NCBI GenBank assembly: GCA_028693335.1
Contig: JAQUVR010000016.1
Location: 1 to 10,968, forward strand
Length of the DNA: 10,968 nt
Direction of reading: 5' to 3'
Source of the DNA: Candidatus Iainarchaeum sp.
GTDB taxonomy: Archaea; Iainarchaeota; Iainarchaeia; Iainarchaeales; CSSED10-239
The translations under genes and the position numbers were made by a program. The notes under the pieces are model-generated. The model searched no databases and had not been told where the DNA came from. It saw only the letters and a list, made by a program, of their open reading frames with translations. Positions 1-10,968 of the stretch are shown here, piece by piece. Each line of letters opens with the position of its first letter. Position 1 is the first letter of the stretch.

Positions 1-523
1 GGTCGTAAACCTCATCGAACAGGCAGTTCAGGCGGCCTTCCACATTGGATGTCTCGTTTATGTGACCCAAAGTCTTTCCCGAAGGATCGTCGTCAAGCAT
101 CGCCGGCCAGATCTCCATAGGCATCGGGTTGCCGGTCCAGCCCTCGTAGGCAGTCGTGACGAACGGGCCCCTGAACGCTGTCGCGTCTGTACCGTCAATG
201 TCCACCTGCGCGGAATCGAGATAGCCGCCGAACATGAGCGCTCCCAGCCAGATGAACTCCGTGCCCGTTCCGCCAGGCATCTCGCCCGAAACAGCGGTCT
301 TGCCCGTGCAGGGGTCTTTCAGACCGAGCCACGGCTCGCCAAAAAATCCCATGTTGGATGTGTTCAGCCATAACAGGCCCGCCCTGTGCACCCTGTATTC
401 CATCGTCGGCCGGAGAGCTTTTGACGGAGCAAGATCAAAGCTCCGCAAACCGTATGACGGATCCGGCGCCGGAAAGAGGCTTATTGCGAATATGAAGATC
501 AGTAAAAGATTTATCTTTATCAT
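1..523 (-). CDS. Secreted protein of unknown function, N-terminal part (gene continues past the left window edge)
   Basis: The minus-strand frame is open from ATG at 523-521 to base 1; it is absent from the ORF track only because no stop lies in the window. Hand translation begins MIKINLLLIFIFAISLFPAPDPSYGLRSFDLAPSK (signal-peptide-like) and continues ...EYRVHRAGLLWLNTSNMGFFGEPWLGLKDPCTGKTAVSGEMPGGTGTEFIWLGALMFGGYLDS.... It is GC-rich like the right flank. The + strand ORFs 62..373 and 234..536 are its antisense shadows. I recognise no family. Confidence 0.65.
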   Translation of the reverse strand, partial: MIKINLLLIFIFAISLFPAPDPSYGLRSFDLAPSKALRPTMEYRVHRAGLLWLNTSNMGFFGEPWLGLKDPCTGKTAVSGEMPGGTGTEFIWLGALMFGGYLDSAQVDIDGTDATAFRGPFVTTAYEGWTGNPMPMEIWPAMLDDDPSGKTLGHINETSNVEGRLNCLFDEVYD

Positions 524-624
524 GCCGATAATTTAAACATACACTGAAAAATATGCAATTCTATATTAAATTAAATGATGAAGACGGTCATGGTTAATGG
601 TGTATAGAAAATTGCTTTCTGTAA
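515..624. repeat. Repeat B, copy 1 (5' region and first three codons of the left flank gene)
   Basis: 515-572 matches 4983-5040 with one mismatch over 58 nt. Looser similarity with indels then runs through gacggtcatggttaat to attgctttctgtaa (611-624 vs 5077-5090). Confidence 0.85.
530..558 (-). promoter_or_regulatory. Candidate sigma70-like promoter for the left flank gene, implying a leaderless or near-leaderless mRNA
   Basis: The minus strand reads TTGCAT, 17 nt, TAAATT, atcggc, ATG. The -10 element ends 6 nt before the start codon and there is no Shine-Dalgarno sequence. An identical arrangement is present in repeat B copy 2. Confidence 0.3.
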
Positions 625-721
625 CCGTACGATATTCTCGTACACTTCGCATAAGGTTCTCATAAGTTCGCATTATTTTTGCATAATAGGTTTTAGTGCT
701 CATAGCTATTAAATCACTTAA

Positions 722-808
722 AACTCTCTTAAATTATTTTCTATTTATTTAAGAATTAGCTACAAACTCTCTTAAACTCTCTTAAAATTCGCTAAAAACT
801 CCCTTAAT
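722..808. repeat. Iteron-like direct repeats AACTCTCTTAAA (three exact copies, one degenerate)
   Basis: Exact copies lie at 722-733, 765-776 and 775-786, with a degenerate copy AACTCCCTTAAT at 797-808. Start-to-start spacings of 43, 10 and 22 nt are close to whole helical turns. They sit in a 590-bp region with no convincing ORF. Confidence 0.45.
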
Positions 809-1214
809 TAATCTTTTATTGCATTTCAATATAGATAAAACATAATTTAGCAATAGTAATATTTTCGGTAGAATAATTAAAAGAAAGTGGAATCGACTCA
901 GAAAGTGGGTTTTACTAACGATTGGTGAGGCTCGGCGCGATTTGTCCGGGGTGGCTACAGATATGTAGGTGCTACCTAATGTAGCGTTGCGATCCGTAAT
1001 CAATACATTTTGGGATCATATAAATACAGCATCGGTTTCAGGATCGCCAGTACGAAATAACGGCAATGGCAAAAAGCAAACTGTTATCTCTCTGTTTCTT
1101 TATACAATTTAACAAAATTATGTGTCAAAAAACAGTGTACACTACAGTTAGGAAAAACGAATCTTCATCGGGAGTATTTTTTGCGTTATTATCTGTGATA
1201 AAATCATTAGTTAC

Positions 1215-2204
1215 CTATAATTTCTTATATTTTGCTATAATTTCTTTTAAAGCTTTAGTTTGTGCGTCATTCAATGTCATTTCATAAGCATATTTTCCAA
1301 CAAATCTTACATCAATTTTATCTGATTCAGCAATTTTAAAGATAGATTTATCTAAATTATCGATACTATTATCAGACCACTCTTTTACACCGTTGCCAGA
1401 GGTATCAGTTTGTTTTTCAGGATAGTCACAATTAATTTCAATCTGTATATTATCAGCATGTACTATTACTTTGTCATAAAACATCCAGTTATCATTGCTA
1501 TATTGAGTTCTTAACCTTAGAAATTTGCTACCAGATTTATTTTTCACTATATAGAATTCAAAAGTTAATAAAGCCCTACCTGAATGTTGACAAGTGAGTC
1601 TTTTTGTCTCATAAAAAATACAGGATTGCATCTTATCTTCAGTTTCAGAAATAAATTCTTCAGATTCATATTCGTAAAGATATTTGTTATATATATTTCT
1701 TAATTTGATTGAATCATTTTTATTCAAAAATAAATTATCGAAATCATCTTGGATGCTGGAAATCTTTTTACCTAAAGATAGTGATTTAGTTTTATTAAGG
1801 GTTGATTTTAAATTACTATTAGAAATTTTATCAAGTTCACTGATTTTATTGTTACTATTTTTTACTAAATCACTGTTGGGGTAAAATGTAGTAATCATGT
1901 TAAATAACAAAAACGCTTTCTTCAATTGGTTTAATTTCAGGAATTCTATTCCTTTTTTATAATAGTATTCAGGTGTTTGGGTAGCTTCATTGTATCTGAC
2001 CTGTAATTCATTCTTTTCTTTTGTGCAATTCTCAATCTTACTAGATAAATCATTGTGTTGAGTTTTTAATTCTTCAATTTCCTGTAAAAGTTTAACTTTT
2101 TCACTTTCAGAGTTACTATATTTAGAATTGAGCTCAGTGAATTCTCTTTTTGAAACACAGCTAATTAGGAATAAAGCAAATGTTAATAGTATTATTTTTT
2201 TCAT
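1215..2204 (-). CDS. Lipoprotein with a coiled-coil N-terminal half, function unknown
   Basis: 329-aa ORF. The N-terminus MKKIILLTFALFLISC has a lipobox-like LISC, and GAGG lies 8 nt upstream of the ATG. The first ~70 residues after the Cys are heptad-like and rich in E/K/L/Q. I cannot name a family for the C-terminal half. Confidence 0.75.
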   Translation of the reverse strand: MKKIILLTFALFLISCVSKREFTELNSKYSNSESEKVKLLQEIEELKTQHNDLSSKIENCTKEKNELQVRYNEATQTPEYYYKKGIEFLKLNQLKKAFLLFNMITTFYPNSDLVKNSNNKISELDKISNSNLKSTLNKTKSLSLGKKISSIQDDFDNLFLNKNDSIKLRNIYNKYLYEYESEEFISETEDKMQSCIFYETKRLTCQHSGRALLTFEFYIVKNKSGSKFLRLRTQYSNDNWMFYDKVIVHADNIQIEINCDYPEKQTDTSGNGVKEWSDNSIDNLDKSIFKIAESDKIDVRFVGKYAYEMTLNDAQTKALKEIIAKYKKL

Positions 2205-2398
2205 TTTTTACAACCTCGCTATTTAAATTAAAAAACACATATTGCCTTATCTGTCATGGTAAATGCCCACTAGGTAAAGATAACAAGGGATAGGGTATCA
2301 TGTCAATGTTCTCTGTCTATAGTGATTAGTTTTATGATAGATTATTGATTTTTCCATTTTGCTGTCTCGAAAGTGTTCAATAAATGTCTAAAGAAAAT

Positions 2399-3760
2399 TT
2401 AATCTGGAAATTCATTTCCTTTTTTTCTATTTAATTTTAAATCCTTTGATTTTAAGAATCCAAATTGTGCGTTTAAAGAGTCGTAGTATTCTTCGTCTTC
2501 TTTTGTCCAGTGTGAGCAGTCTAAGTATATAAAATCTTCAGAAGTTCCTTCGTTTAATTTTGGTGGTTCAGTAGCTATTCCAATTATAGAATGCAATTGC
2601 TTAAATTTATTCTTGGTTACCCCACAAGCTATTTCAAGTAATTGTTGCCTATAAGGACGATATTCGTTGTCGTAGTCGGAAATAGGATCAATCTTTAATT
2701 GGAGAAATAGATATGCCCTGTTTTTGTGAAACGATTCTATGTAAGTTAATAAACGAACAAAGGGTTGTTGCGATTGAGGAAAATTATTTATTGCACGCAC
2801 TATTCTATCTGAAAGTTCCCTTCTATGAAAACGTGGCTCCATTGCCATATAATATATTGCATTTTTATTGTTAAATATAGATGCACCACGAGTGATACCA
2901 TCGAGGGCATATTGGCACGTTTTCTGAATTAATCCATCCCAAACGTAAGAAATTTCATCAGATTTCTTTTTCCTTTTAAAAATATCACTTTGTTCGAAAT
3001 CTTTCCATTCACCTTCACCGATAATAATCATATTTACTTTTTTATCCTTGTAACCTATGAAATGAGTATGATTCGATTCATCGTAATTTAACATGTAATG
3101 TGCGAGTAAATCTTCTTCACCACAGTATATTAAAGCCTCATAGTTATTAATTGCTGATATTTTTGCCTCCAAGTATCTGGAAAAGTCATAAAATGTATCG
3201 AGTTCTTTAAATATCAATTCAAGGTTTTCGCTATCAAAAATATGTACAGGATTGTTTTTATCTAAAGTTATTAAAAATGGAAAAGGAATATTGTCAGATT
3301 TATCACCATAAATTATAGCCAAACTACCAAAAACATTTTCATCAGAAAATTCCCTACATGCATCTTTAGCTCCATGAGCGATTACAATTTTGTGTACAAT
3401 CATATTATTCGTATCAATTTTTATAGGGAAAGGAGATTTTAATTCCACATCAAGAAATATTTTAGCATTTCTTCTTATATATTTTTCAGCACCATGTGCA
3501 GTTTTAATTTGCATGTCAATTGCTTTTTTTTTCCATCTTTCCCAGTTTGTTATTGTGTCACCTTCTTTTTTTAATGATAAATTCTCTCTATCATAAAAAA
3601 TAAATACATGATTGCCGAAAATAGCCAGTAAATCACACAACTCTTTTTTATCATCTTTGATTGGATTGGGGTAACTCCATAATTTCAAGAAAGTATTTTC
3701 ACACAATTTAGCTAGAAGATTTTCCGTAGGTGTTACACCTTCTGATTTCGTGATCTTCAT
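2399..3760 (-). CDS. Hypothetical cytoplasmic protein (453 aa), family not recognised
   Basis: Long ORF with GGAG 5 nt upstream of the ATG and no signal peptide or TM segment. The N-terminal segment LCENTFLKLWSYPNPIKDDKKELCDLLAIFGNHVFIFYDRE loosely recalls the strand core of restriction-endonuclease-like folds, but I cannot identify catalytic residues. Confidence 0.8.
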   Translation of the reverse strand: MKITKSEGVTPTENLLAKLCENTFLKLWSYPNPIKDDKKELCDLLAIFGNHVFIFYDRENLSLKKEGDTITNWERWKKKAIDMQIKTAHGAEKYIRRNAKIFLDVELKSPFPIKIDTNNMIVHKIVIAHGAKDACREFSDENVFGSLAIIYGDKSDNIPFPFLITLDKNNPVHIFDSENLELIFKELDTFYDFSRYLEAKISAINNYEALIYCGEEDLLAHYMLNYDESNHTHFIGYKDKKVNMIIIGEGEWKDFEQSDIFKRKKKSDEISYVWDGLIQKTCQYALDGITRGASIFNNKNAIYYMAMEPRFHRRELSDRIVRAINNFPQSQQPFVRLLTYIESFHKNRAYLFLQLKIDPISDYDNEYRPYRQQLLEIACGVTKNKFKQLHSIIGIATEPPKLNEGTSEDFIYLDCSHWTKEDEEYYDSLNAQFGFLKSKDLKLNRKKGNEFPD

Positions 3761-3806
3761 GAAATCTCCGCATTGTTTTTTAAATGATGCTCAACAAATA
3801 CTAGTT

Positions 3807-4280
3807 CTACATATCTAAACTTTCAAGTTCCCAAGAATCGCCGTTACTTTTTAGAACACAAATATAATACGTTCGGATATTTGCGCCAAAACTATTTTCA
3901 GAATCAACATAAGCTGATACCTTGTATTTATTGTTTCCTAAATTTGATACTTTCGCGTCCAAAACAGAACAGAAATCTGCGGTAGCCGGTGCTTTTAAGT
4001 TTTGTTCAACAAATCGCTGGCTCATCACAAAAGCCATTCCGCTATCATCTGAATTACGACGAGAACTGCTTGATTTCTGTTCAGGTGGAGGTCTATATGA
4101 TGATGACCCGCCATATTTGGCTGAAAAAGAAAATAATTTGACAAGCAAATATACGAGTATAATCAAAACTAAATAATTTAAGCAACTGCCCTTTTTTTTG
4201 GGAATATAACCGCAATTGGGGCAGGATTTAGCTTTTGTGCTAATATCTTTTCCGCATTCTTTGCATTTTCTTAATGCCAC
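3807..4280 (-). CDS. Membrane-anchored zinc-ribbon protein with a small extracytoplasmic C-terminal domain
   Basis: GTG start 4 nt after AGGAGG. It has a CKEC-x10-CPNC zinc ribbon, a hydrophobic helix LNYLVLIILVYLLVKLF, an S/P-rich linker and a C-terminal globular part of about 80 aa (...YKVSAYVDSENSFGANIRTYYICV...). Confidence 0.8.
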   Translation of the reverse strand: MALRKCKECGKDISTKAKSCPNCGYIPKKKGSCLNYLVLIILVYLLVKLFSFSAKYGGSSSYRPPPEQKSSSSRRNSDDSGMAFVMSQRFVEQNLKAPATADFCSVLDAKVSNLGNNKYKVSAYVDSENSFGANIRTYYICVLKSNGDSWELESLDM

Positions 4281-4288
4281 AAAACCTC

Positions 4289-4816
4289 CTATTCATTTGC
4301 CCTTTCAGCCAACATTCTGCCTGTAATAATGCCAAGTGTAATAGCAATGACAACTCCTGCAACAATTTTAAAATTATCATTGCCCTCTCGGTCTTTTATA
4401 TTTTCTTCTTTAAAAGCAGAACTAGAGTTGATTTTTATGTTAGGATTTAATGTCTTGAAAAATTCCGCTTGGCAACTATAACAAGAATTAAGCATATCGG
4501 GTCTACGTTCGTCAATTATGTTTACAATATCAGCCCCCAAATAGCTTGCTTCTTCTCGTAACATTCTAATCGCATCGGATTCTCTACAACCAGCGGTAAA
4601 GGCATTGTCTCTTAATTTGATTTCTCTAATTTTCTCATAGGCATTAGAATTAAAGCTTGAGAATTTCACAATAGATATTTCTGCTGTCGATTTTATATCT
4701 TGTGAGTTCTGTTCTTTTTCGTAGCCCGATCGTTTTACTGTATAAGATGTACAGCCTGAAATAAAGAAAACATTCAGGTATAATACGATCATCAGAAACA
4801 CACTACTCTTTAACAT
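4289..4816 (-). CDS. Lipoprotein with a C-terminal TM helix, function unknown
   Basis: The N-terminus MLKSSVFLMIVLYLNVFFISGC has a lipobox-like ISGC, and the C-terminal stretch IVAGVVIAITLGIITG is hydrophobic. The Cys-containing middle (AGCRESDAIRMLREEASYLGADIVNII...SCYSCQAEF) loosely recalls RcsF/DUF4156-type lipoproteins. Its TAG stop overlaps the AGGAGG of the next gene. Confidence 0.75.
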   Translation of the reverse strand: MLKSSVFLMIVLYLNVFFISGCTSYTVKRSGYEKEQNSQDIKSTAEISIVKFSSFNSNAYEKIREIKLRDNAFTAGCRESDAIRMLREEASYLGADIVNIIDERRPDMLNSCYSCQAEFFKTLNPNIKINSSSAFKEENIKDREGNDNFKIVAGVVIAITLGIITGRMLAERANE

Positions 4817-4935
4817 TTTTATCTCTCATGTTTAAACTAACAGCAACTCCTCTGTTTTGAACAAGTTTTTCGCATACTGTACGGACAAACGTCATTTTGT
4901 TTTTTTGTATATATGAATTATCCGTCTGCCATTTT

Positions 4936-4988
4936 AAAAATTATGATAATTTAATTATGATGTCAACGAGTTTCTTATTTTTCTTTAT
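4936..4988. repeat. Repeat A, short copy (promoter segment only) ending in the junction core CTTTAT
   Basis: aaaaattatgataatttaattatgatgtcaacgagtttcttatttttctttat differs by one base each from 7453-7505 and 10663-10715. Confidence 0.9.
4938..4966 (-). promoter_or_regulatory. Candidate promoter (TTGACA, 17 nt, TAATTT) for the module I operon
   Basis: The minus strand reads TTGACAtcataattaaattatcaTAATTT, about 120 nt upstream of the 4816 start. The same sequence is conserved in three copies in the window. Confidence 0.5.
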
Positions 4989-5090
4989 CATGCCGATAAT
5001 TTAAACATACGCTGAAAAATATGCAATTCTATATTAAATTATTTGGAGACGGTCATGGTTAATACGGCAAATTATCATTGCTTTCTGTAA
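4983..5090. repeat. Repeat B, copy 2 (internal; fused on its left to repeat A and on its right to the Bro-N pseudogene)
   Basis: See copy 1. This copy retains the ATG ATA AAG of the left flank gene, but here it opens only a 16-codon chimeric ORF (MIKKNKKLVDIIIKLS). Confidence 0.85.
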
Positions 5091-5506
5091 ATAGGTTTTC
5101 ATAGCTCTGTCGAATGAAAGTTCAGGATCTCCAGTCTCTTCGATTCTTTCATAACCCGTTTTAGCAAGCCAAAGCTTAAAAGGTTCCGCCCTTTGGCGAA
5201 GGAATTGACTGAACTACACGCAATAAATCTTCTGTTGAGAAGCAATCTGTAGCATAAAACTTGCCGTCACTAGCCTCAAATTTCAGTTGTACGATTTTTT
5301 CGTACACCTCACTTCCTTCTTTTTTGAGCTTCTTCTTTAAGTCGCTCCAATAACGTTTGGAAATAGATGAATCAGTCAGAATCTCTATCATATCAATAAT
5401 TGAAAAATACCAGAGTTCATTATCTCCGTCCCAAAATCGCCGGACTTGTTTTTGGTTGTAGCACAGATAATTTGTGTCTTATTACTTTTTTCTCTGCTGT
5501 TGTCAT
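5081..5506 (-). pseudogene. Bro-N/DinD-like pseudogene (3'-truncated, at least two frame disruptions)
   Basis: Nucleotide- and protein-level paralogue of the N-terminal ~135 codons of 8234..9124. AAGGAGG precedes the ATG at 5506-5504, but the homologous frame (NQKQVRRFWDGDNELWYFSIIDMIEIL...) is offset by one base from that ATG. An extra base near 5188-5191 ends the tracked ORF at PSPKGGTF*, and homology resumes in another frame (AEPFKLWLAKTGYERIEETGDPELSFDRAMKTYLQK). The gene stops at the junction with repeat B. Confidence 0.85.
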
Positions 5507-5632
5507 TTTATTCCCTCCTTTTCTGAAATATAATAAATCATTTTTCGTTAGGAAAGAAGCTTAAGCAGACATATCATTTTTTATTTTTCCTCTTATTTAA
5601 TTAACCGCACTCTCTCGTTAACCTTGCCCATA

Positions 5633-5704
5633 ACGGTCATGAAAAAAAGATCACAAGCAAACATAACACGGTAAAGTCATATAGCCAATGTTAGCGGTTG
5701 TGTG
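5633..5704. repeat. Repeat E, copy 1 (~70 bp, between the cargo genes and the Bro-N copy)
   Basis: It shares acggtcatg, a similar cacaag...cat segment, an exact 11-mer tagccaatgtt and ggttgt with 9145-9220. By eye roughly two thirds of positions are identical, with a 4-nt length difference. Confidence 0.6.
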
Positions 5705-5707
5705 TAA

Positions 5708-6499
5708 TTATTCAATTTTCATTCGAGAATTATTCTTTAGAAGTACTGCTATGTCATTCCTTTTTTTTATTATTACAGTATCAAAAATATCTTGGATAAA
5801 AGGAGCGATTAAATATTGAGAATTTTCTCCAGGTGATATTCCATTGTCTAAAGCATCAATATAATCACTTGACATCATATAATGGTCATTTAAATAGAAT
5901 ACATAAGAAAAATGTTGAATAAAAATATCATTTAAATCAGAAGAAAACAAATCTAACATTTTAAGTCTTACAGGATTATAGATCTCGTTATCATTAGAAA
6001 GTACATTATGAAAAAAATTGTAATGAGTATTATCGTTGCACCTTTCTCTAATCTTTTTGTACCTTTTGTCTTTATCAAGTAGTAAAGTAATCGGTTTCAA
6101 CAGACAAGAATTTTTTATATAGCTTGAAATTATCCTATATTCGGGAATGGTTTCAATTCCCTCTATCCACTTGTCAATCTGTTTAACTATAAGATTATCG
6201 ATACTGTAATTATTTTTTAGATAAAGATTTAAGTAGACATTTATAAATGTGGAATCATAATATTTTCTTAGAAGAGCATACGCATCATTAATACGACCTT
6301 TTAATAAAACATCCCGTATTGAATCAAGCGTTCCATGCATCGATGAGAAAATATGAGCATCAAGGTTGTTTTCGATCTTAGTTCCTAGTAATATAAAATA
6401 CATGATAGAGTCAGATAATGAATTGTAAAAATCTGCAATCTCTTTCAACTCAGAGAATACTATGTGCCCAGTATAATTTTTATTTATAAAATTATTCAT
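5708..6499 (-). CDS. Hypothetical cytoplasmic protein (263 aa) with a possible HEPN-like R-x5-H motif
   Basis: The ATG overlaps the upstream stop (ATGA at 6496-6499). No signal peptide. Motif KKIRERCNDNTHYN (R153-x5-H159, nt 6023-6043) and an earlier helix GRINDAYALLRKYYDS recall HEPN/Abi-type proteins. This is motif-level only. Confidence 0.7.
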   Translation of the reverse strand: MNNFINKNYTGHIVFSELKEIADFYNSLSDSIMYFILLGTKIENNLDAHIFSSMHGTLDSIRDVLLKGRINDAYALLRKYYDSTFINVYLNLYLKNNYSIDNLIVKQIDKWIEGIETIPEYRIISSYIKNSCLLKPITLLLDKDKRYKKIRERCNDNTHYNFFHNVLSNDNEIYNPVRLKMLDLFSSDLNDIFIQHFSYVFYLNDHYMMSSDYIDALDNGISPGENSQYLIAPFIQDIFDTVIIKKRNDIAVLLKNNSRMKIE

Positions 6500-7212
6500 T
6501 TTGAATTTTGATAGCTAGTCAATATTCCATTTTCAAAGTATAAATATAAATTACTATAAACCCATTGTTCATGGATACCCCAATCACCGACAGTTTTATT
6601 TATATTATTGGGGTTACCTAAACTTATTGAGGCCATTTCAACCGTCATTCCCACCCAGTAATAACCATTAAATAAGTCCTCGCCGATATTTTTCCCGAAT
6701 TTATCCGTTAAAAACTTTTTGTACTCTTGTTTCTTCTTTTTATTAAAATTGATCTCATTTTCTTGCTTTTCTTTAATTATATTTTCTCTGAAAAGTATAA
6801 TATCTTCTGTTTCGGATAAAATAGACTCAAAAACATAACCGATATGTTCGTCTTTTTTTACAAGCCATGAATTTTCTTTAACAAATTTTTCGTTAAAACA
6901 GTAATCTAGCAAAATTAAAGTATCATTTATTTCAGTCTTGAATAAAATATCTGAGTACATTGAATTTTCTTTTCTAATCTCACCTTTTGATTTGCAAACA
7001 ACTTTTATAGAATTTTTCCCTTTCAACTCAATTAGTTTTTTTTGCATAATGTATTTATCCAAGTCATTTTTTACTATCTCTAATGAATCTGTTTTTGACT
7101 TTATTAGATTTTCTAATCGCAATCTATCTATTTTTAAATTCGCGATATTAGAATCTATACTTTGACATAGCAGAGCACTTTGAATAACGAATAATACAAT
7201 AATGAACTTCAC
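6496..7212 (-). CDS. Secreted protein with a coiled-coil segment and a C-terminal BamE/SmpA_OmlA-like motif
   Basis: GTG start 5 nt after AGGAGG. Signal peptide MKFIIVLFVIQSALLCQS. The C-terminus GYYWVGMTVEMASISLGNPNNINKTVGDWGIHEQWVYSNLYLYFENGILTSYQ fits the GMT...LG.P...E.W.Y...YL.F.NG.L pattern of small BamE-like domains. Confidence 0.75.
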   Translation of the reverse strand: MKFIIVLFVIQSALLCQSIDSNIANLKIDRLRLENLIKSKTDSLEIVKNDLDKYIMQKKLIELKGKNSIKVVCKSKGEIRKENSMYSDILFKTEINDTLILLDYCFNEKFVKENSWLVKKDEHIGYVFESILSETEDIILFRENIIKEKQENEINFNKKKKQEYKKFLTDKFGKNIGEDLFNGYYWVGMTVEMASISLGNPNNINKTVGDWGIHEQWVYSNLYLYFENGILTSYQNSK

Positions 7213-7262
7213 ATGATCCTCCTATAAAAAACAATTTAAATTACACATTTCCGCTAACGAGC

Positions 7263-7288
7263 GGCTAAGCGAATGGTTTCGTTTAGCC
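7263..7288 (+). other. Conserved 11-bp-stem hairpin in the repeated leader
   Basis: ggctaagcgaa-tggt-ttcgtttagcc. All pairs are Watson-Crick except one G-T, which is a G-U wobble only if read as + strand RNA. It is conserved at 10524-10547, with a degenerate second copy at about 7313-7337. Confidence 0.45.
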
Positions 7289-7454
7289 GTGACATTTGCG
7301 CCTGTTTGCGGAAGCTAAGTGAATGGTTTCGTTAAGACTGCATGTTTGAACCTATTTCAAGAAGCTATATGCCACAGCGGTGCTTTTTTCTTCTGAATGT
7401 GAAAGAGCCTCATGTGTTTACCTTGTTCGATCTGTATTCTTATCTCAGTCAGAA

Positions 7455-7483
7455 AAATTATGATAATTTAATTATGATGTCAA
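7455..7483 (-). promoter_or_regulatory. Candidate promoter A (TTGACA, 17 nt, TAATTT) upstream of the module II cargo
   Basis: Identical hexamers and spacer to 4938-4966 and 10665-10693, followed by a ~240-nt leader before the GTG at 7212. Confidence 0.5.
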
Positions 7484-7516
7484 CGAGTTTCTTGTTTTTC
7501 TTTATTGAAAGATATA

Positions 7517-7573
7517 TTACATTAGTCCGTCAGCGAGGATCTTGAGGCCGATGAGGATCAATACAATGTCGTT
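7517..7573 (-). pseudogene. Displaced remnant of the mntP 3' end (last ~17 codons plus stop)
   Basis: The reverse complement reads DIVLILIGLKILADGLM*, against GGIVLILIGLKILADGLM* in the intact gene. There is no upstream coding continuation. Confidence 0.9.
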
Positions 7574-7584
7574 CGAGTAATATA

Positions 7585-7613
7585 TTGATTTAAGCGAAAA
7601 AAATTTGTATATT
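7585..7613 (+). promoter_or_regulatory. Candidate promoter for the + strand antitoxin-like/DUF2442 genes
   Basis: TTGATT, 17 nt, TATATT, ending 45 nt upstream of the ATG at 7659. Confidence 0.4.
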
Positions 7614-7658
7614 GAGATCAAGTAAAGAAAAGAAGCTTATTTATAAAGAAGTGATTAT

Positions 7659-7853
7659 ATGAAACTGCATACTCAGATCATAGAAAAAGAAGGAAAGAAA
7701 GAATTTGTTGTAATACCTGTCAAAGAATTCAAGATATTAGAAGAAATGATAGAAGATTACGAAGACCTTAGAGACTTAAGAGAAGCAAAAGCAAGCTCAA
7801 AAGGCGAAAAGGCAGTTCCTATTAAAAAGGTAATAAAAAGCCTGAAACTGTAA
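7659..7853 (+). CDS. Phd/YefM- or RelB-like type II antitoxin-like small protein
   Basis: 64 aa. KEFVVIPVKEFKILEEMIEDYEDLRDLREAKASSKGEKAVPIKKV matches the common short-antitoxin pattern (a strand, then an acidic EDxEDL helix, then a C-terminal tail). Confidence 0.6.
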   Translation: MKLHTQIIEKEGKKEFVVIPVKEFKILEEMIEDYEDLRDLREAKASSKGEKAVPIKKVIKSLKL

Positions 7854-7867
7854 TTAATATAGCCTAG

Positions 7868-7957
7868 ATGGAAATTCATAAAGAAGACCTGCAGGCTGAT
7901 TGGGATTTAGCAGTTAATGGTAAAACATCATTTCTGATAACGAGGTTAGACCAATGA
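7868..7957 (+). CDS. 29-codon ORF between the antitoxin-like gene and DUF2442 (doubtful)
   Basis: MEIHKEDLQADWDLAVNGKTSFLITRLDQ. Its TGA overlaps the next ATG (ATGA at 7954-7957). It sits where a toxin gene would be expected but is too short, and I do not recognise it. Confidence 0.2.
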   Translation: MEIHKEDLQADWDLAVNGKTSFLITRLDQ

Positions 7958-8193
7958 GAATAAAAAAAATTGAAGCTATGTCAAATTATATCCTGAGGAT
8001 CGAATCTGAGGGAGGTCAGATCGGAGATTTTGATGTTAAGCCTTACTTGGCTTATGAAGCTTTTATTTATTTAAAAGACATTGACCATTTCATGCGCGTC
8101 AGAAACGGCGGATATTACATAGAGTGGGACTGCGGTGCTGATCTTTCTGCCGATACTATTGAAGCAAAATGGAAAGTGCTCGTATCGGAATAA
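7954..8193 (+). CDS. DUF2442-family small protein
   Basis: 79 aa, with GAGG 7 nt upstream. The pattern ...NYILRIESEGGQIGDFDVKPYL...F..LKD...F..V...G..IEW.CGADLSADTI is typical of DUF2442. Confidence 0.65.
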   Translation: MRIKKIEAMSNYILRIESEGGQIGDFDVKPYLAYEAFIYLKDIDHFMRVRNGGYYIEWDCGADLSADTIEAKWKVLVSE

Positions 8194-8233
8194 CTAGCTC
8201 AATTGCTGTAAATGATCACTGCTTTCTGCAAAA

Positions 8234-9124
8234 TTATTCTTCGTCATCTTTTTCAGTCTTATCTAAAAAGTTATTTTCCTTACCGGTTAACAAGGTCTTT
8301 GCATTTTCCGGGCTTACTATACTTTCACCTGTCTGCTTTTCGATTTCTATTCTTGCCTGCTTTGCCGCAAATCCGCCCTTTTTTGCAACTTCAACATTTT
8401 CATGAAAACCATCCGGTTTCTGCTTTTTAGATATTTCTGAAGTCGAAGCTTCCGCAAGCATATTTAAAACCAGTTCAAGGTTAGTCATATTGTCTCTCAA
8501 GTTTTCTTTCTTGAGATTCTTCAGCTTTTTATATTGCTTTACCGATTTATCTGACCACGCTTTTGTAATCTCATCTGTCAAAATAGCATAATCCTGCTCT
8601 TTCTTCATTCCTCTTTCTTTCCACTCATCAGTAAGCTCTTTCCTGACTTCAATACTCTTTAACCTCTGATTGATCCATTCCTTAGAATACCCTTTCTGTA
8701 AATAGGTTTTCATAGCTCTGTCGAATGAAAGTTCAGGATCTTCAATTTCGTCTATTCTTTCTCTTCCAACTTGAGCTAACCATAACTTGAACGGTTCTGC
8801 TTTCGGAGACGGAACAGACTGAATAAGCCTGAACAGTTGCTCGGTATCAGCGACATCGGTAAGCCTCATTTTGCCGTCAGCAGCCATCATTTTCAAACTG
8901 TGACAATTTGTCACGGTTTCATTTCCCTCTTTTTTCAACCGTTCTTTCAATTTACGCCAATATGCACCTGAGTCAATACTTTCAGTAAGCACTTCGATCA
9001 CATCAATAATAGAAAAATACCACTGTTCATTATCTTCGTCCCAGTGGCGACGGACTTGTTTTTGATTGAATAAGATTATTGAGTTTGAGTTTTTCATTGT
9101 ATGTTTAAGCTCCTTTATTAACAT
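8234..9124 (-). CDS. Bro-N domain / DinD-like (phage antirepressor-like) protein
   Basis: WYFSIIDVIEVLTES...YWRKLKERLKKEG...LKMMAADGKMRLTDVADTEQLFRLIQSVPSPKAEPFKLWLAQVGRERIDE is the widespread Bro-N-type N-terminal module. The C-terminal half (...NLELVLNMLAEASTSEISKK...AKKGGFAAKQARIEIEKQTG) resembles the DinD C-terminal region. The track start at 9145 is a TTG. I prefer the first ATG at 9124 (AGGGGTGAAA upstream); 9097 is an alternative. Confidence 0.8.
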   Translation of the reverse strand: MLIKELKHTMKNSNSIILFNQKQVRRHWDEDNEQWYFSIIDVIEVLTESIDSGAYWRKLKERLKKEGNETVTNCHSLKMMAADGKMRLTDVADTEQLFRLIQSVPSPKAEPFKLWLAQVGRERIDEIEDPELSFDRAMKTYLQKGYSKEWINQRLKSIEVRKELTDEWKERGMKKEQDYAILTDEITKAWSDKSVKQYKKLKNLKKENLRDNMTNLELVLNMLAEASTSEISKKQKPDGFHENVEVAKKGGFAAKQARIEIEKQTGESIVSPENAKTLLTGKENNFLDKTEKDDEE

Positions 9125-9144
9125 TTTCACCCCTAAAGCCTTCA

Positions 9145-9220
9145 ACGGTCATGGCTAAAAGCACCACACAAGTCACAATGAACCAGTCAGTTTCATGTAG
9201 CCAATGTTGTCTGGTTGTTG
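9145..9220. repeat. Repeat E, copy 2
   Basis: See copy 1. It sits between the stop of the FGE-domain gene and the start of the intact Bro-N gene. Confidence 0.6.
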
Positions 9221-9270
9221 TTATAAATATCGTTAATTGCCTAAGCTACACAAGTTAGAATGAAATACTA

Positions 9271-10431
9271 TCATGGTGTTCTCACAATCCGAAAGCCCAA
9301 GTCGTAAGTGCTGCTGTTCGGGCTGAAGTATTTGTAGCGATAAGCAACACGACAGGTGCTGGTACTACTGGCCCAACCACCACCATGTAGAACACGATTA
9401 GTCCCATTAGTAGGTCCATAAGGGTCAGTCACTGTTCCCAGATCATTACAAGTAGTGTAATAACTGCTTCCATACCAATCCCAACACCATTCATATAAAT
9501 TTCCAGTCATGTCATAAATTTCAAGCTGATTAGGTGCTTTTGTACCAGTGGGTTTTGAACCGTAGGGATTATTATTCTCGGTATACCAAGCAACTGTACT
9601 AACTGTATCGCTACCGCTGTAACGATAATCGTCAGTATGATGACTACCACCTCTCGCAGCATACTCCCACTCTGCTTCTGTAGGTAGTCTGTAGCCATTG
9701 GCAGACCAGTTACATTCTACAGCATTCCATGTAGAGTCTGAACTAGTCGGCACCGTTCCCCAGATATCTGGATCTGTTGAACTATTTATAGTATAACACG
9801 GAGTGATGCCTTCGGCTATGCTCCTTTTATTACAATAAACCATTATTTCATACCAACATACAGAGTAAGCCGGATAATTGTCACCCGTTCCGTAAGAACT
9901 CCAATCCTTAGCAGGCATATAAATAGTCCATTCAGACTGTGTTACCTCGCATACTCCCATGTAAAAATCACTAACTGTCACACTATGTAAAGGTGTTTCA
10001 TCAATAGAACCTTCGTTAAAATGATCACCCATCTGGTATGTACCTCCTTGAACAAAGACCATCTCAAGGGAGTCTGTTACAGTTATTACTTTGCTATCTG
10101 TATCTGAATCCTGCCCATCGCTAACTGTAACCGTAATTGTATAAGTATAGTTGGTATTTGGAGCTGTCCAAACTGTACTTGAACCAGTTGTTGTAGAAAG
10201 ATCACCACCTGTCGATATCCAGCTGTAGGTCAAACTATCTCCATCATCGTCTGTTGCGCTACAGCTTAAATCTACTGTTCCACCTTGCTGAACAGATGTC
10301 GCCGATGCTGTCATACTGTTAATCAACGGAGTATTGTTTGTCGGTTCTGTACCTCCGTCATCATCAGAGCATGACAAAAAAATCATTCCTAGTAGCATAA
10401 AAGTAAGTAAGATAGGTATCCATTTTTTCAT
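9271..10431 (-). CDS. Lipoprotein with a PKD-like Ig domain and a C-terminal formylglycine-generating-enzyme (SUMF1/FGE-sulfatase, C-type-lectin fold) domain
   Basis: Preferred start is the ATG at 10431, 6 nt after AAGGAG, giving MKKWIPILLTFMLLGMIFLSC (lipobox). PKD-like segment: SATDDDGDSLTYSWISTGGDL...WTAPNTNYTYTITVTVSDGQDSD. FGE-domain hallmarks: MVFVQGGTYQMGD, ETPLHSVTVSDFYMGVCEVTQSEW, GYRLPTEAEWEYAARGG, YDMTGNLYEWCWDWY, RVLHGGGW and LGFRIVR. Confidence 0.85.
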   Translation of the reverse strand: MKKWIPILLTFMLLGMIFLSCSDDDGGTEPTNNTPLINSMTASATSVQQGGTVDLSCSATDDDGDSLTYSWISTGGDLSTTTGSSTVWTAPNTNYTYTITVTVSDGQDSDTDSKVITVTDSLEMVFVQGGTYQMGDHFNEGSIDETPLHSVTVSDFYMGVCEVTQSEWTIYMPAKDWSSYGTGDNYPAYSVCWYEIMVYCNKRSIAEGITPCYTINSSTDPDIWGTVPTSSDSTWNAVECNWSANGYRLPTEAEWEYAARGGSHHTDDYRYSGSDTVSTVAWYTENNNPYGSKPTGTKAPNQLEIYDMTGNLYEWCWDWYGSSYYTTCNDLGTVTDPYGPTNGTNRVLHGGGWASSTSTCRVAYRYKYFSPNSSTYDLGFRIVRTP

Positions 10432-10523
10432 TTTGTTCTCCTTAGATTTAAATATCTTAGTTAAGCTTAGGCACATCTTTTATCCATAATATTTTGTAAC
10501 AATTGCACCTGACGTGCGGCTAA

Positions 10524-10547
10524 GCTAAGCGAATGGTTTCGTTTAGC
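10524..10547 (+). other. Conserved leader hairpin, second copy (10-bp stem)
   Basis: gctaagcgaa-tggt-ttcgtttagc, with the same G-T position as in copy 1. Confidence 0.4.
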
Positions 10548-10664
10548 CTCGACGTTTGAACCTATTTCAAGAAGCTATACGCCACAGCGGTGCTTTTTTC
10601 TACTGTATGCGAAAGAGCCTCATGAGTTTACCGTGTTCGATCTTTATTATTATCTCAGTCAGAA

Positions 10665-10693
10665 AAATTATGATAATTTAATTATGATGTCAA
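10665..10693 (-). promoter_or_regulatory. Candidate promoter A (TTGACA, 17 nt, TAATTT) upstream of the FGE-domain gene
   Basis: Starts 33 nt downstream of the mntP stop on the minus strand and is followed by a leader of about 230 nt. Confidence 0.5.
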
Positions 10694-10726
10694 CGGGTTT
10701 CTTATTTTTCTTTATCTGAAGATAAA

Positions 10727-10968
10727 TTACATTAGTCCGTCAGCGAGGATCTTGAGGCCGATGAGGATGAGTACAATGCCGCCGACGAGTTCGGCGCTCT
10801 GTCCCAGCCTTCTGCCGGCGCGCTTGCCGATGTTGACGCCGACGAGAGATATGACGAAGGTGGTGCATGCGATCAGGACGGCGGGATAGTATATCTCAAC
10901 ATCAAGAATAAGTATGCTTAAGCCGGCAGCGAGGGCATCTATGCTGGTCGCTACAGCCATAACGAGCA
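10727..10968 (-). CDS. mntP: Manganese efflux pump MntP, C-terminal part (gene continues past the right window edge)
   Basis: AVATSIDALAAGLS...GVNIGKRAGRRLGQSAELVGGIVLILIGLKIL matches the second repeat of the MntP/DUF204 family (compare E. coli MntP AVATSIDAMAVG...[20 protein letters not shown]). The frame stays open upstream of the tracked Met to base 10968. GC-rich. Confidence 0.85.
   Translation of the reverse strand, partial: LVMAVATSIDALAAGLSILILDVEIYYPAVLIACTTFVISLVGVNIGKRAGRRLGQSAELVGGIVLILIGLKILADGLM

What the first reader, a model, noticed from the sequence alone, without database searches (positions are those of the whole stretch)
511..10726. Recombinase-less tandem array of att-like flanked modules stacked downstream of mntP
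A ~10.2 kb AT-rich block sits between two GC-rich host genes and is partitioned by duplicated junction sequences into three modules, at about 625-4982, 5081-7515 and 7574-10725. None of the three encodes an integrase, transposase or relaxase. This resembles accretion of cis-mobilisable, integrase-less elements at one chromosomal site, served in trans by a recombinase encoded elsewhere. The target here is the 3' end of a protein gene (mntP), not a tRNA gene. Repeated Campbell-type homologous insertion is the alternative explanation.
Basis: partly seen in the sequence, partly recalled or inferred. Interest (0 to 1): 0.75.

Follow-up and report, generated by a model that had tools for sequence, protein, structure and literature searches.

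The report
Integron-type gene cassette array beside mntP
The AT-rich block between mntP and a secreted-protein gene is best read as an integron-style array of gene cassettes with no integrase in the window, a known kind of element whose blocks have also been duplicated.

Summary
A 33% GC block (524-10726) lies between 55-60% GC genes. It is cut into three parts by long direct repeats, and no recombinase gene was found.

It is a ~75-nt site on the minus strand, conserved from AAC to GTT (window 9137-9215, 5625-5699, weaker 2242-2317, plus half and collapsed copies). In related contigs this site follows each gene set in one orientation. The DNA just after the G|TT of one site is complementary to the DNA just before the AAC of the next site. 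That is the signature of integron cassettes and attC sites. One complete cassette sits in the window (7257-5634, two genes).

So the block is most likely an integron-type cassette array with no integrase in view (CALIN-like), in a Delongbacteria-related genome. They are separated by duplicated boundary segments: a conserved ~46-nt Y arm, a 13-nt core, and either the mntP 3' end or the start of the left gene.

How those blocks were stacked is unresolved. Tandem duplication, Campbell insertion and a second att system all fit. Cassette content differs between three samples.

This is a new member of a known kind, of moderate interest.

The parts
1..523 (-). 5' part of the left flanking gene, a secreted protein of unknown family. 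ATG at 523-521. The first 15 codons are AT-rich (four ATA codons); the rest has GC3 of 0.72.
509..626 (.). Junction J0: 13-nt core (509-521, which overlaps the left gene's first codons) plus the X arm.
583..626 (-). Shortened attC-like site inside X: GGTTACA..TAACC ATGACC G|TC, with the G at 585.
   Evidence: (7.3 bits, weak)
1059..1095 (-). Collapsed attC remnant: GAGATAAC..TTTGCC ATTGCC G|TT.
   Evidence: (D10); read from the sequence
1215..2204 (-). 329-aa lipoprotein gene (module 1).
2242..2317 (-). Degenerate full-length attC between the 453-aa and 329-aa genes: AAC at 2310-2308, G|AT with the G at 2251.
   Evidence: (21 bits, E 6e-4)
2399..4816 (-). Three module 1 genes: 453 aa (phrog_18195), 157 aa (zinc ribbon, phrog_13160) and a 175-aa lipoprotein.
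4936..5090 (.). Junction J1: Y arm (4936-4976), core (4977-4989), then X arm with a half attC (G at 5050).
5081..5466 (-). Bro-N pseudogene: residues 8-136, one frameshift, truncated exactly where X begins.
5625..5699 (-). attC of cassette C2: AAC at 5692-5690, G|TT with the G at 5634. Its L' box has decayed.
   Evidence: (68 bits)
5634..7257 (-). Complete cassette C2: 238-aa gene (6496-7212), 263-aa gene (5708-6499) and its attC. Its first 24 nt are complementary to the 24 nt ending at its own AAC (17/24). The reconstituted site folds with a 9-bp outer stem and an 8-bp R box.
   Evidence: (I25)
7264..7367 (-). Two 50-nt hairpin units, read as short attC-like sites: GGCTAA..TTAGCC + 4 nt + G|TT, with the G at 7258.
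   Evidence: (D4); read from the sequence
7289..7571 (.). Junction J2: leader and Y arm, core (7494-7506), and a 55-nt mntP 3' pseudo-end (7517-7571).
7659..8193 (+). RelB-like antitoxin gene (7659-7853) and DUF2442 gene (7954-8193). 7858-7953 is the remnant of a DUF4160 gene that is intact in L091.
8234..9097 (-). Bro-N domain protein, 287 aa (PADLOC PDC-S13, E 2.8e-136). It is the first gene of a cassette that starts at 9145. The 3' end and attC of that cassette are missing.
9137..9215 (-). attC of cassette C3: AAC at 9208-9206, G|TT with the G at 9146.
   Evidence: (88 bits)
9146..10512 (-). Cassette C3: FGE-sulfatase/PKD lipoprotein gene (9271-10431, or 10476 from the upstream ATG) plus its attC. 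It starts after G|TC (G at 10513). Complementarity between its two ends is only partial.
10496..10781 (.). Junction J3: hairpin unit (10524-10577), leader, Y arm (10663-10703), core (10704-10716), and the true mntP 3' end.
10727..10968 (-). 3' part of mntP (79 codons plus stop).

Best explanation
The AT-rich block is an integron-type gene-cassette array. It lies in a Delongbacteria-related chromosome between mntP and a secreted-protein gene, and no integron integrase is present in the window (CALIN-like).

Anatomy:
- All cassettes read on the minus strand.
- Each ends in a ~75-nt attC site: R'' ..AAC, 3-4 nt, L'' GGCTA, a ~40-nt variable part, L' TAGCC, ATGACC, then R' G|TT.
- The cassettes carry lipoproteins and secreted proteins, an FGE-sulfatase protein, a toxin-antitoxin pair, proteins of unknown function, and a very conserved Bro-N (PDC-S13) gene.

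Shown:
- The sites, their single orientation, and their position after gene sets.
- Exchange boundaries exactly at AAC and at G|TT.
- Complementarity of cassette ends across each cassette.
- Differences in cassette content between samples.

Inferred:
- An IntI-type tyrosine recombinase encoded elsewhere excises cassettes as circles by attC x attC recombination and re-inserts them. This would turn over the cargo.
- The three modules arose when blocks of cassettes were duplicated or re-inserted together with a boundary segment. That segment is a conserved ~46-nt Y arm (with a TTGACA-17-TAATTT promoter-like motif) plus a 13-nt core, joined either to the last 55 nt of mntP or to the X arm.
- The X arm holds a half attC, a candidate promoter, and the left gene's start codon.
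- The J1 joint lies within an 8-13 nt identity (GATAAAGA..), which fits unequal crossing-over or a single crossover with a circle. The blocks then diverged by cassette turnover and decay.
For: 1. Array organisation in relatives. In L092/L093 and L011 (Bro-N 83% identical), the site recurs in one orientation after each gene set: [779 aa, 538 aa HNH_2, Bro-N]-site-[276 aa]-site-[nucleotidyltransferase/HepT toxin-antitoxin pair]-site.
2. Limits of conservation. Conservation starts at AAC and stops at GTT, and the flanks differ from cassette to cassette.
3. Cassette-end complementarity. The 24 nt from the GTT of site n are complementary to the 24 nt ending in the AAC of site n+1 in 17-20 of 24 positions. 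Against unrelated sites the figure is 8-14. This holds for four cassettes in relatives and for window cassette C2.
4. Covariation. On reconstituted circular-form sites all 63 cells pair. Four of the 8 R-box pairs carry changes on both sides. None of 500 shuffles reaches the observed score, and slid controls pair in 22-39% of cells.
5. Folding of reconstituted sites as single-stranded DNA: L093 C2 -20.7 kcal/mol, z -5.8; L093 site 1 z -2.7 to -3.0; window C2 -12.2 kcal/mol, z -2.6.
6. L-box compensatory change in L102: GGCAA/TTGCC in place of GGCTA/TAGCC.
7. Motif counts in the window. CATGACMGWY occurs 5 times, all on the minus strand, against 0.09 expected. AACATTGRY occurs 3 times, each about 56-60 nt upstream of a 3' motif on the minus strand. 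The covariance model scores 88, 68 and 21 bits.
8. Strain variants break at the site's edges. L091 loses similarity to the window exactly at the G|TT position (9146|9145). L007 loses it at 9240/9241, the outer edge of the same attC.
9. One end of the J2/J3 repeat coincides with the G|TT and G|TC points of the hairpin units (7258 and 10513).
10. CALINs, attC architecture with conserved AAC/GTT triplets, and routes that place cassettes away from intI are described in PMC4889954 and bioRxiv 10.1101/2022.09.11.507474.
Against: - No integron integrase was seen, neither in the window nor in any related contig that carries the site. All of those contigs are short, or the array runs off their end.
- The sites could not be scored with the standard IntegronFinder attC model.
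- The RYYY/RRRY parts of the R boxes fit the textbook consensus only loosely. The stems extend about 10 bp beyond the R box, which is not typical.
- In array context the sites do not fold better than shuffles. This is expected for chimeric sites, but it means the structural evidence rests on my own reconstitution.
- Only one window cassette (C2) has cognate ends. C3 is partial, and the module 1 cassettes show none.
- The Y arm, the core and the mntP' copy are not explained by G|TT exchange. The J0/J1 breakpoint lies 11 nt upstream of the nearest GTT.
- The cassettes are unusually large and multi-gene (1.4-5.2 kb).
- The links from the array to the full mntP, to the left gene, and from X (J1) into module 2 rest on this assembly alone.
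Confidence: 0.62

Rival explanations
1. Three integrase-less integrative elements (like cis-mobilisable elements, CIMEs) accreted one after another at an att core at the mntP 3' end. A tyrosine or serine recombinase encoded elsewhere recombines the 13-30 nt core. Each element carries replacement gene ends. The attC sites would then be cargo-level detail.
For: - All four junctions share the core ATTT(A/T)TCTTTATC plus about 10 of the next 14 nt. This includes an imperfect palindrome, TTTATC-n4/5-GATAA.
- The arms chain as expected for tandem insertion: J3 and J2 are mntP-core-Y, J1 is X-core-Y (attP-like), and J0 is X-core-left gene.
- The mntP' copy keeps the last 16 codons, with a synonymous Leu change.
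- L091 shows a minimal 1.7-kb unit, Y-BroN-toxin-antitoxin-mntP'-core-Y, bounded by Y on both sides.
- Tandem accretion of CIMEs at gene 3' ends is documented (PMC5704250).
Against: - J2 should be X-core-Y under the simple model, but it is a second mntP-core-Y.
- An empty site, mntP-core-left gene, would lack the left gene's ATG and upstream region.
- The centre of the palindrome differs between copies (TGAA, GAAA, GAAC, ATGCC). That is unfavourable for a strand-exchange overlap region.
- No recombinase, no empty site and no circular junction was found. The Y-arm 30-mer gave no hit in JGI metagenomes or IMG/VR, and only L007 in the GTDB genome collection.
- The long repeats (117-286 nt) make homologous recombination sufficient.
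Confidence: 0.15
2. There is no site-specific step at the junction level. A single array flanked by chance-similar 8-13 nt sequences was tandemly duplicated by unequal crossing-over or replication slippage, or circles were inserted by Campbell-type homologous recombination through the 117-286 nt homologies. The copies then diverged. This is compatible with the integron reading of the cargo and is included in my best explanation.
For: - J1 switches from J0-like to J3-like sequence within the GATAAAGA microhomology.
- The repeat lengths are ample for RecA-dependent recombination.
- Identity is uneven: 97% near the core and 85-89% further out. L091's junction is 89% identical to the window while the adjacent genes are 97% identical. 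This suggests gene conversion among copies.
Against: - The Bro-N copies of modules 2 and 3 are only 56-65% identical as protein, while their upstream leaders are about 89% identical. The blocks are therefore mosaics, not simple duplicates.
- This model does not explain why the same core also lies next to both host genes.
Confidence: 0.15
3. Assembly artefact. The three blocks are alternative occupants of one site in different strains, or the GC-rich ends belong to another organism, and the assembler chained them through the shared repeats.
For: - The window comes from metagenome-type data.
- Short-read contigs of the same material break at every repeat (L001, L003 and L009).
- The links array-to-full mntP, array-to-left gene, and X (J1)-to-module 2 have no independent contig.
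- The cassettes' other hosts are AT-rich (L102 is 28-39% GC), unlike the window's flanks.
Against: - L007, from a separate MAG assembly, spans module 2-J2-module 3 at 99.9% identity.
- L002, from another sample, spans module 1-Y-core-X.
- L003 spans C3 up to Y.
- J2 and J3 differ at about 10% of positions, so they are distinct loci.
- The GC-rich mntP fragment sits inside the array in three assemblies (window, L007, L091).
- Both flanking ORFs stay in frame across the joins.
Confidence: 0.07

Closest known systems
CALIN (cluster of attC sites lacking an integron integrase) or a fragment of a sedentary chromosomal integron (Cury et al. 2016, PMC4889954; IntegronFinder 2.0)
   Same: - Co-oriented cassettes, each ending in a palindromic site with conserved AAC/GTT triplets and an R-UCS-L layout.
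- Chimeric sites within the array.
- Sites that are homogeneous within the lineage.
- Toxin-antitoxin cassettes and cargo of unknown function.
- No nearby intI.
   Different: - The host lineage (Candidatus Delongbacteria, going by the MAG label) has no integron report in the searched literature.
- Cassettes are large and multi-gene.
- Stems extend about 10 bp beyond the R box.
- The array is interrupted by duplicated boundary segments that include host gene ends.
- Several sites are decayed.
- The standard attC model was not run.
CIME/ICE tandem accretion at the 3' end of a protein gene (ICESt1/CIME at fda in Streptococcus thermophilus; reviewed in PMC5704250)
   Same: - Integrase-less units.
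- Direct repeats that include a gene's 3' end.
- Tandem stacking, with an attP-like internal joint.
   Different: - No decayed conjugation or integration genes.
- No known cognate element or integrase.
- One internal junction (J2) has the wrong arm.
- The left gene's 5' end is duplicated as well.
Cassette insertion at genomic attG sites by integron integrase (Loot et al., bioRxiv 10.1101/2022.09.11.507474)
   Same: It offers a route by which cassettes come to lie between ordinary chromosomal genes, away from intI. It also allows imprecise excision that captures or alters flanking DNA. The exchange points are GWT.
   Different: - That work was done with single cassettes in E. coli.
- Here there is a 10-kb multi-cassette block.
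- The outermost joins are not demonstrably at GWT.
Tandem genomic islands at ssrA in Dehalococcoides (PMC3146451), and Xer-dependent integrating elements (IMEX) or pdif modules (from my own knowledge)
   Same: Stacking of islands at one site, with a repeated copy of the target's 3' end. In the IMEX and pdif cases the recombinase is supplied in trans.
   Different: - The ssrA islands each carry an integrase.
- No dif-like 11-6-11 site was recognised here. This was judged by eye only.

Membership tests
Integron cassette array / CALIN | At least two attC sites clustered on one strand. | tested here: met
   A lineage-specific covariance model gives 88, 68 and 21 bits, all on the minus strand. The 3' motif occurs 5 times on the minus strand against 0.09 expected. 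This was tested with my own model, not with IntegronFinder's.
Integron cassette array / CALIN | attC architecture: R''(..AAC)-spacer-L''...L'-spacer-R'(GTT..), with conserved triplets, a variable part of 20-100 nt and a palindromic fold. | tested here: met
   AAC and GTT are invariant in all copies. The L boxes GGCTA/TAGCC show one compensatory variant. The variable part is about 40 nt. Reconstituted sites fold with z -2.6 to -5.8. The RYYY/RRRY positions fit only partly.
Integron cassette array / CALIN | Cassette boundary at G|TT, so that the distal R' of site n belongs to the next cassette and pairs with the R'' of site n+1. | tested here: met
   Cognate ends match at 17-20 of 24 positions, non-cognate ends at 8-14. 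Four of 8 R-box pairs are compensatory, and no shuffle out of 500 reaches the score. In the window this holds for cassette C2 only.
Integron cassette array / CALIN | Detection by the curated attC covariance model (IntegronFinder). | not testable with these tools
   The model is not available here. Rfam gave no match in the window.
Integron cassette array / CALIN | No integron integrase within about 4 kb (CALIN), as opposed to intI plus attI next to the first cassette (complete integron). | tested here: inconclusive
   There is no tyrosine recombinase in the window, and mntP sits where intI/attI would be. The window ends 240 nt beyond the array on the mntP side and about 520 nt beyond it on the left-gene side, and the rest of the genome is unseen.
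CIME-type accretion (cis-mobilisable elements) | Each unit is flanked by attL and attR related to the att sites of a known ICE or IME. | not testable with these tools
   No cognate element is known. The Y-arm 30-mer was found only in one contig of the same locus.
CIME-type accretion (cis-mobilisable elements) | Internal junctions of a tandem array are attP-like hybrids of the two outer arms. | tested here: inconclusive
   J1 fits (X-core-Y). J2 does not (mntP'-core-Y).
CIME-type accretion (cis-mobilisable elements) | Remnants of integration or transfer modules, or demonstrated excision. | tested here: not met
   No such gene remnants were found. No circular or empty-site junction was recovered.

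The most novel reading that the evidence does not exclude
A two-level system. Blocks of integron cassettes are themselves packaged as integrase-less modules. These modules recombine at a separate ~13-30 nt core that overlaps both the end of mntP and the start of the next gene, and they restore both gene ends when they stack. Such modules could be as small as the 1.7-kb Y-BroN-toxin-antitoxin-mntP' unit seen in L091. The very conserved Bro-N/PDC-S13 protein, the only gene that recurs in every block, might take part in that second reaction.
Probability: 0.1. Interest if true: 0.75.

Novelty: new member of a known kind. Interest (0 to 1): 0.4.

Why it matters
If the reading is right, it extends integron-type cassette arrays to a poorly known candidate phylum. 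It also shows cassettes that are large and multi-gene.

It gives a concrete example of a cassette array wedged between ordinary chromosomal genes of very different base composition, with host gene ends duplicated inside it. That bears on how CALINs arise and how they remodel their surroundings.

Finally, it flags a Bro-N/PDC-S13 gene, 70-80% identical across many phyla, as a recurrent cassette passenger.

For the scan itself the lesson is practical. The conspicuous long repeats were not the informative ones. The short, strand-biased AAC...GTT sites were.

Tried and rejected
Searches for an empty site in relatives:
- Left-gene homologues are at most 63% identical, and their upstream neighbour is a TonB-dependent receptor or outer-membrane beta-barrel gene, not mntP.
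- No mntP above 59% identity exists in the protein collection.

DNA searches:
- The Y-arm 30-mer gave 0 hits in JGI metagenomes, 0 in IMG/VR and 1 in the GTDB genome collection.
- The hairpin and X-arm searches in IMG/VR gave 0 hits.
- The 16-mer from the attC 5' end gave 36 IMG/VR hits. All were chance matches, since none scored with the covariance model.

RNA searches: Rfam and tRNA searches found nothing.

attC first rejected, then accepted: the site in array context folds no better than shuffles. I reversed that once the flanks were paired across cassettes.

Other attempts:
- Promoter and terminator scans are uninformative in this AT-rich DNA (55 found against 43 expected). The Y motif did not pass that scan's threshold.
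- A dif or Xer-type reading of the palindromes was considered by eye only. The spacings do not fit 11-6-11.
- Looking for intI: only an unrelated recombinase fragment (next to a transposase-like ORF, which I took for IS91 type by eye) turned up in L027. The 31-kb L102 contig shows the array end next to core genes, but its start runs off the contig.
- An AlphaFold model of the Bro-N protein was confident only for the N-terminal domain (pLDDT below 50 for the C-terminal half), so I did not run a fold search.
- Cognate-end tests failed for the module 1 cassettes and for the Bro-N cassettes of modules 2 and 3. I read these cassettes as decayed or truncated.
- Literature searches for PDC-S13 and for Delongbacteria plus integron found nothing.

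Full report
**1. The observation**

The window has GC-rich ends: 0.596 for 1-480 and 0.554 for 10727-10968. Between them lies a 10.2-kb block at 0.331.

- The right end is the 3' part of mntP on the minus strand, with its stop at 10727-10729 (Pfam Mntp, E 4.8e-23).
- The left end is the 5' part of a gene on the minus strand. Its ATG at 523-521 opens a signal peptide that aligns with the N-termini of four distant homologues, one of them from a Candidatus Delongbacteria MAG.

- 7289-7571 matches 10496-10781 at 89% over 286 nt.
- 509-624 matches 4977-5090 at 85% over 117 nt, and at 97% over the first 65 nt.
- A 54-nt stretch occurs three times at 96-98% identity (4936, 7453, 10663).
- A four-way alignment shows a shared core, ATTT(A/T)TCTTTATC, plus a partly conserved extension.
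- The longest exact repeat is 50 nt. First-order Markov resamples give at most 18 nt.

I call the junctions J0 (509-626), J1 (4936-5090), J2 (7289-7571) and J3 (10496-10781). Read on the minus strand, the arms are:

- J3: mntP 3' end, core, Y arm.
- J2: a 55-nt copy of the mntP end, core, Y arm.
- J1: X arm, core, Y arm.
- J0: X arm, core, which here forms the first codons of the left gene.

The mntP copy in J2 keeps the last 16 codons, with a synonymous CTC-to-TTG change.

No ORF matches an integrase, transposase or relaxase in Pfam, NCBIfam, PHROGs or PADLOC. Two proteins (453 and 263 aa) have no informative match anywhere.

**2. What the genes are**

All genes are on the minus strand except the toxin-antitoxin pair.

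- Module 1: a 175-aa lipoprotein, a 157-aa zinc-ribbon membrane protein, a 453-aa protein (phrog_18195) and a 329-aa lipoprotein.
- Module 2: a 238-aa secreted protein, a 263-aa protein, and a Bro-N pseudogene. The pseudogene covers residues 8-136, has one frameshift, and is cut exactly where X begins.
- Module 3: an FGE-sulfatase/PKD lipoprotein, an intact 287-aa Bro-N protein, and on the plus strand a RelB-like gene and a DUF2442 gene.

The Bro-N protein matches PADLOC candidate system PDC-S13 over its full length (E 2.8e-136). It belongs to a family of more than 8000 proteins that are 70-80% identical across many phyla.

**3. Comparators**

Exact-protein look-ups and one DNA scan recovered only short contigs of the same locus.

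- L001, L003 and L009 (SRR22315505): L001 and L003 are 100% identical to the window; L009 carries the identical 263-aa protein. All three stop at the repeats.
- L002 (SRR2043626) spans module 1 into J1.
- L007 (MAG GCA_028702975.1, labelled Candidatus Delongbacteria) spans window 6599-9240 at 99.9%. It therefore confirms the module 2-J2-module 3 join. It then diverges at 9240/9241 into a different, divergently oriented gene.
- L091 (SRR15237817) reads Y-core-mntP'-DUF4160-DUF2442-BroN-59 nt-Y. It lacks window 9146-10656, and it has an intact DUF4160 gene where the window has the RelB-like gene.

No empty site could be found. The host's mntP and left gene have no close relatives in the collections.

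**4. The missed repeat**

Among 80 loci encoding relatives of the Bro-N protein, only L011 shared non-coding DNA with the window. Contigs for a further relative (L092-L101) shared it as well. The shared element is ~75 nt and lies at window 9137-9215 and 5625-5699.

In L092/L093 it follows each gene set in one orientation: [caspase-FGE protein, HNH_2 protein, Bro-N]-site-[276 aa]-site-[nucleotidyltransferase/HepT toxin-antitoxin pair]-site. In L011 it brackets [656-aa lipoprotein, 616 aa, Bro-N].

Conservation begins at AAC and ends at GTT. The layout is AAC-ATT-GGCTAC...TTAGCC-ATGACC-GTT, which is the R''-spacer-L''...L'-spacer-R' layout of integron attC sites. In those sites the AAC and GTT triplets are the best-conserved positions and the variable part is 20-100 nt (PMC4889954).

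The decisive test was whether cassette ends pair across the cassette.

- The 24 nt from the GTT of one site are complementary to the 24 nt ending in the AAC of the next site downstream in 17-20 positions. Against unrelated sites the figure is 8-14.
- This holds for four cassettes in L011, L092 and L093. It also holds for one cassette in the window, whose start GTTAGCGGAAATGTGTAATT (7258-7239, minus strand) pairs with the flank of the site at 5625-5699.
- I rebuilt the site each cassette would carry as a circle. All 63 cells then pair, and four of the eight R-box pairs carry changes on both sides.
- None of 500 shuffles reaches the observed score, and slid controls pair in only 22-39% of cells.
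- These rebuilt sites fold as single-stranded DNA well beyond shuffles. Values are -20.7 kcal/mol (z -5.8) for L093 cassette 2, z -2.7 to -3.0 for L093 site 1, and -12.2 kcal/mol (z -2.6) for window cassette C2.
- The same sites in array context do not fold better than shuffles, as expected for chimeric sites.
- L102 adds a compensatory L-box variant, GGCAA/TTGCC.

**5. Parsing the window with this key**

A covariance model built from six copies scores 88 bits (9137-9215), 68 bits (5625-5699) and 21 bits (2242-2317), all on the minus strand.

The 3' motif CATGACMGWY occurs five times, all on the minus strand, against 0.09 expected. The 5' motif AACATTGRY occurs three times, each about 56-60 nt upstream of a 3' motif on the minus strand.

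The two extra 3' motifs lie in the X arms, which are shortened sites (GGTTACA..TAACC ATGACC G|TC). A collapsed remnant lies at 1059-1095.

The 50-nt hairpin units in the leaders of modules 2 and 3 (GGCTAA..TTAGCC, 4 nt, then G|TT or G|TC) look like short derivatives. They sit exactly where cassettes C2 and C3 begin.

- C2 (7257-5634; 238-aa and 263-aa genes plus attC) is complete.
- C3 (10512-9146; the FGE gene plus attC) has only partial end complementarity.
- The Bro-N cassettes lack their 3' sites.
- The module 1 cassettes show no cognate ends.

The strain variants break at the edges of the 9137-9215 site. L091's similarity ends exactly at G|TT (9146|9145). L007's ends at 9240/9241, the outer edge of the stem.

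[quoted passage not shown] Three caveats apply. I used a lineage-specific model. No intI has been seen anywhere in this lineage's short contigs. The window ends close to the array.

**6. The junction repeats**

G|TT exchange explains one boundary of the J2/J3 repeat, at the hairpin sites (7258 and 10513). It does not explain the rest.

- The Y arm is conserved on both sides of its own GTT.
- J1 switches from J0-like to J3-like sequence within GATAAAGA, 11 nt upstream of that GTT.
- The mntP copy ends inside the coding sequence.

Three processes fit the topology:

- unequal crossing-over at the 8-13 nt identity, followed by cassette turnover;
- a single crossover with a circle carrying 117-286 nt of homology;

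Some points argue against a simple version of the third. J2 has the wrong arm. An empty mntP-core-left gene site would lack the left gene's ATG. The palindrome centre varies between copies.

Other points argue against simple duplication. The Bro-N copies of modules 2 and 3 are only 56-65% identical, while their leaders are about 89% identical. The blocks are therefore mosaics.

Imprecise excision and genomic (attG) insertion by integron integrases are documented routes that could move cassette blocks together with captured flanking DNA (bioRxiv 10.1101/2022.09.11.507474). I could not test that here.

**7. Composition and assembly**

The same cassette family sits in AT-rich genomes elsewhere (L102 is 28-39% GC, with AT-rich core genes next to the array). 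The array is therefore compositionally foreign to the window's flanks.

The first 15 codons of the left gene are also AT-rich, with four ATA codons. The X arm carries a candidate promoter, TTGCAT-17-TAAATT, ending 6 nt before the ATG. This suggests, but does not show, that the array supplies the start of that gene.

A chimeric assembly is unlikely for three reasons. The GC-rich mntP fragment lies inside the array in three assemblies. L007 and L002 span two internal joins. Both flanking ORFs stay in frame. Even so, the outermost links and the X (J1)-to-module 2 link rest on this contig alone.

**8. Verdict**

This is a new member of a known kind, in an unusual lineage and with some atypical features. 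Interest is moderate.

Noticed in passing
L092 1-6660 and L093 1-6562: Contigs from two JGI samples are circular permutations of each other with a period of about 7219 nt (L092 6115-6660 equals L093 1-546). The cassette set [caspase-FGE, HNH_2, Bro-N][276 aa][nucleotidyltransferase/HepT toxin-antitoxin pair] is therefore tandemly repeated, a graph cycle through identical attC copies, or a circle made only of cassettes.
   Followed up: partly
L011 162-182 and 5051-5071: A perfect 21-nt inverted repeat (TTGCAGAAAGATAATCCCATT) brackets the three-gene cassette. It resembles the distal end of the window's X arm and the Bro-N codons TYLQKG. Deletion between such look-alike 10-mers would explain the truncation of the module 2 Bro-N gene.
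   Followed up: partly
window 8234-9097; loci L010-L103: The Bro-N/PADLOC PDC-S13 protein is 70-80% identical across many phyla, with more than 8000 relatives. It is usually the last gene behind a variable partner (HNH_2, a 616-aa protein of unknown family, DUF4238, or an unannotated 317-aa protein), sometimes with overlapping stop and start codons. Its function is unknown. The AlphaFold model is poor for the C-terminal half.
   Followed up: partly
window 625-1058: About 430 nt with no convincing gene. It contains 10-11 nt tandem repeats (646-673, 764-786) and a GC-richer patch around 900-1000. A 43-aa ORF on the minus strand (705 to 577) runs through the X half-attC and has a counterpart ending in ..INHDRLQII in J1. 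There is no Rfam or tRNA hit.
   Followed up: no
window 7637-7953 vs L091 164-439: The window has a RelB-like antitoxin gene where L091 has the 5' two thirds of a DUF4160 gene. Window 7858-7953 keeps the DUF4160 3' remnant. One partner of the toxin-antitoxin pair has therefore been swapped between strains.
   Followed up: partly
window 7264-7367 and 10524-10577: 50-nt units, each with an 11-bp hairpin (GGCTAAGCGAA-TGGT-TTCGTTTAGCC): two tandem copies in module 2 and one in module 3. They lie in the leaders upstream of the first cargo genes. I read them as short attC derivatives, but a role in the mRNA leader is not excluded.
   Followed up: partly
window 4936-4976, 7453-7493, 10663-10703: On the minus strand the Y arm carries TTGACA-17-TAATTT, overlapped by two direct ATCATAATT repeats 14 nt apart. 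This looks like a promoter with an operator. It did not pass the consensus promoter scan.
   Followed up: no
L102 1-18766: In a 31-kb AT-rich contig, the Bro-N gene and a single attC (8950-9022) form the end of a run of co-oriented genes. That run lies directly next to core genes: a hybrid-cluster (Prismane) protein and an MMPL transporter. This is an example of an array end in a native, compositionally matched host.
   Followed up: partly
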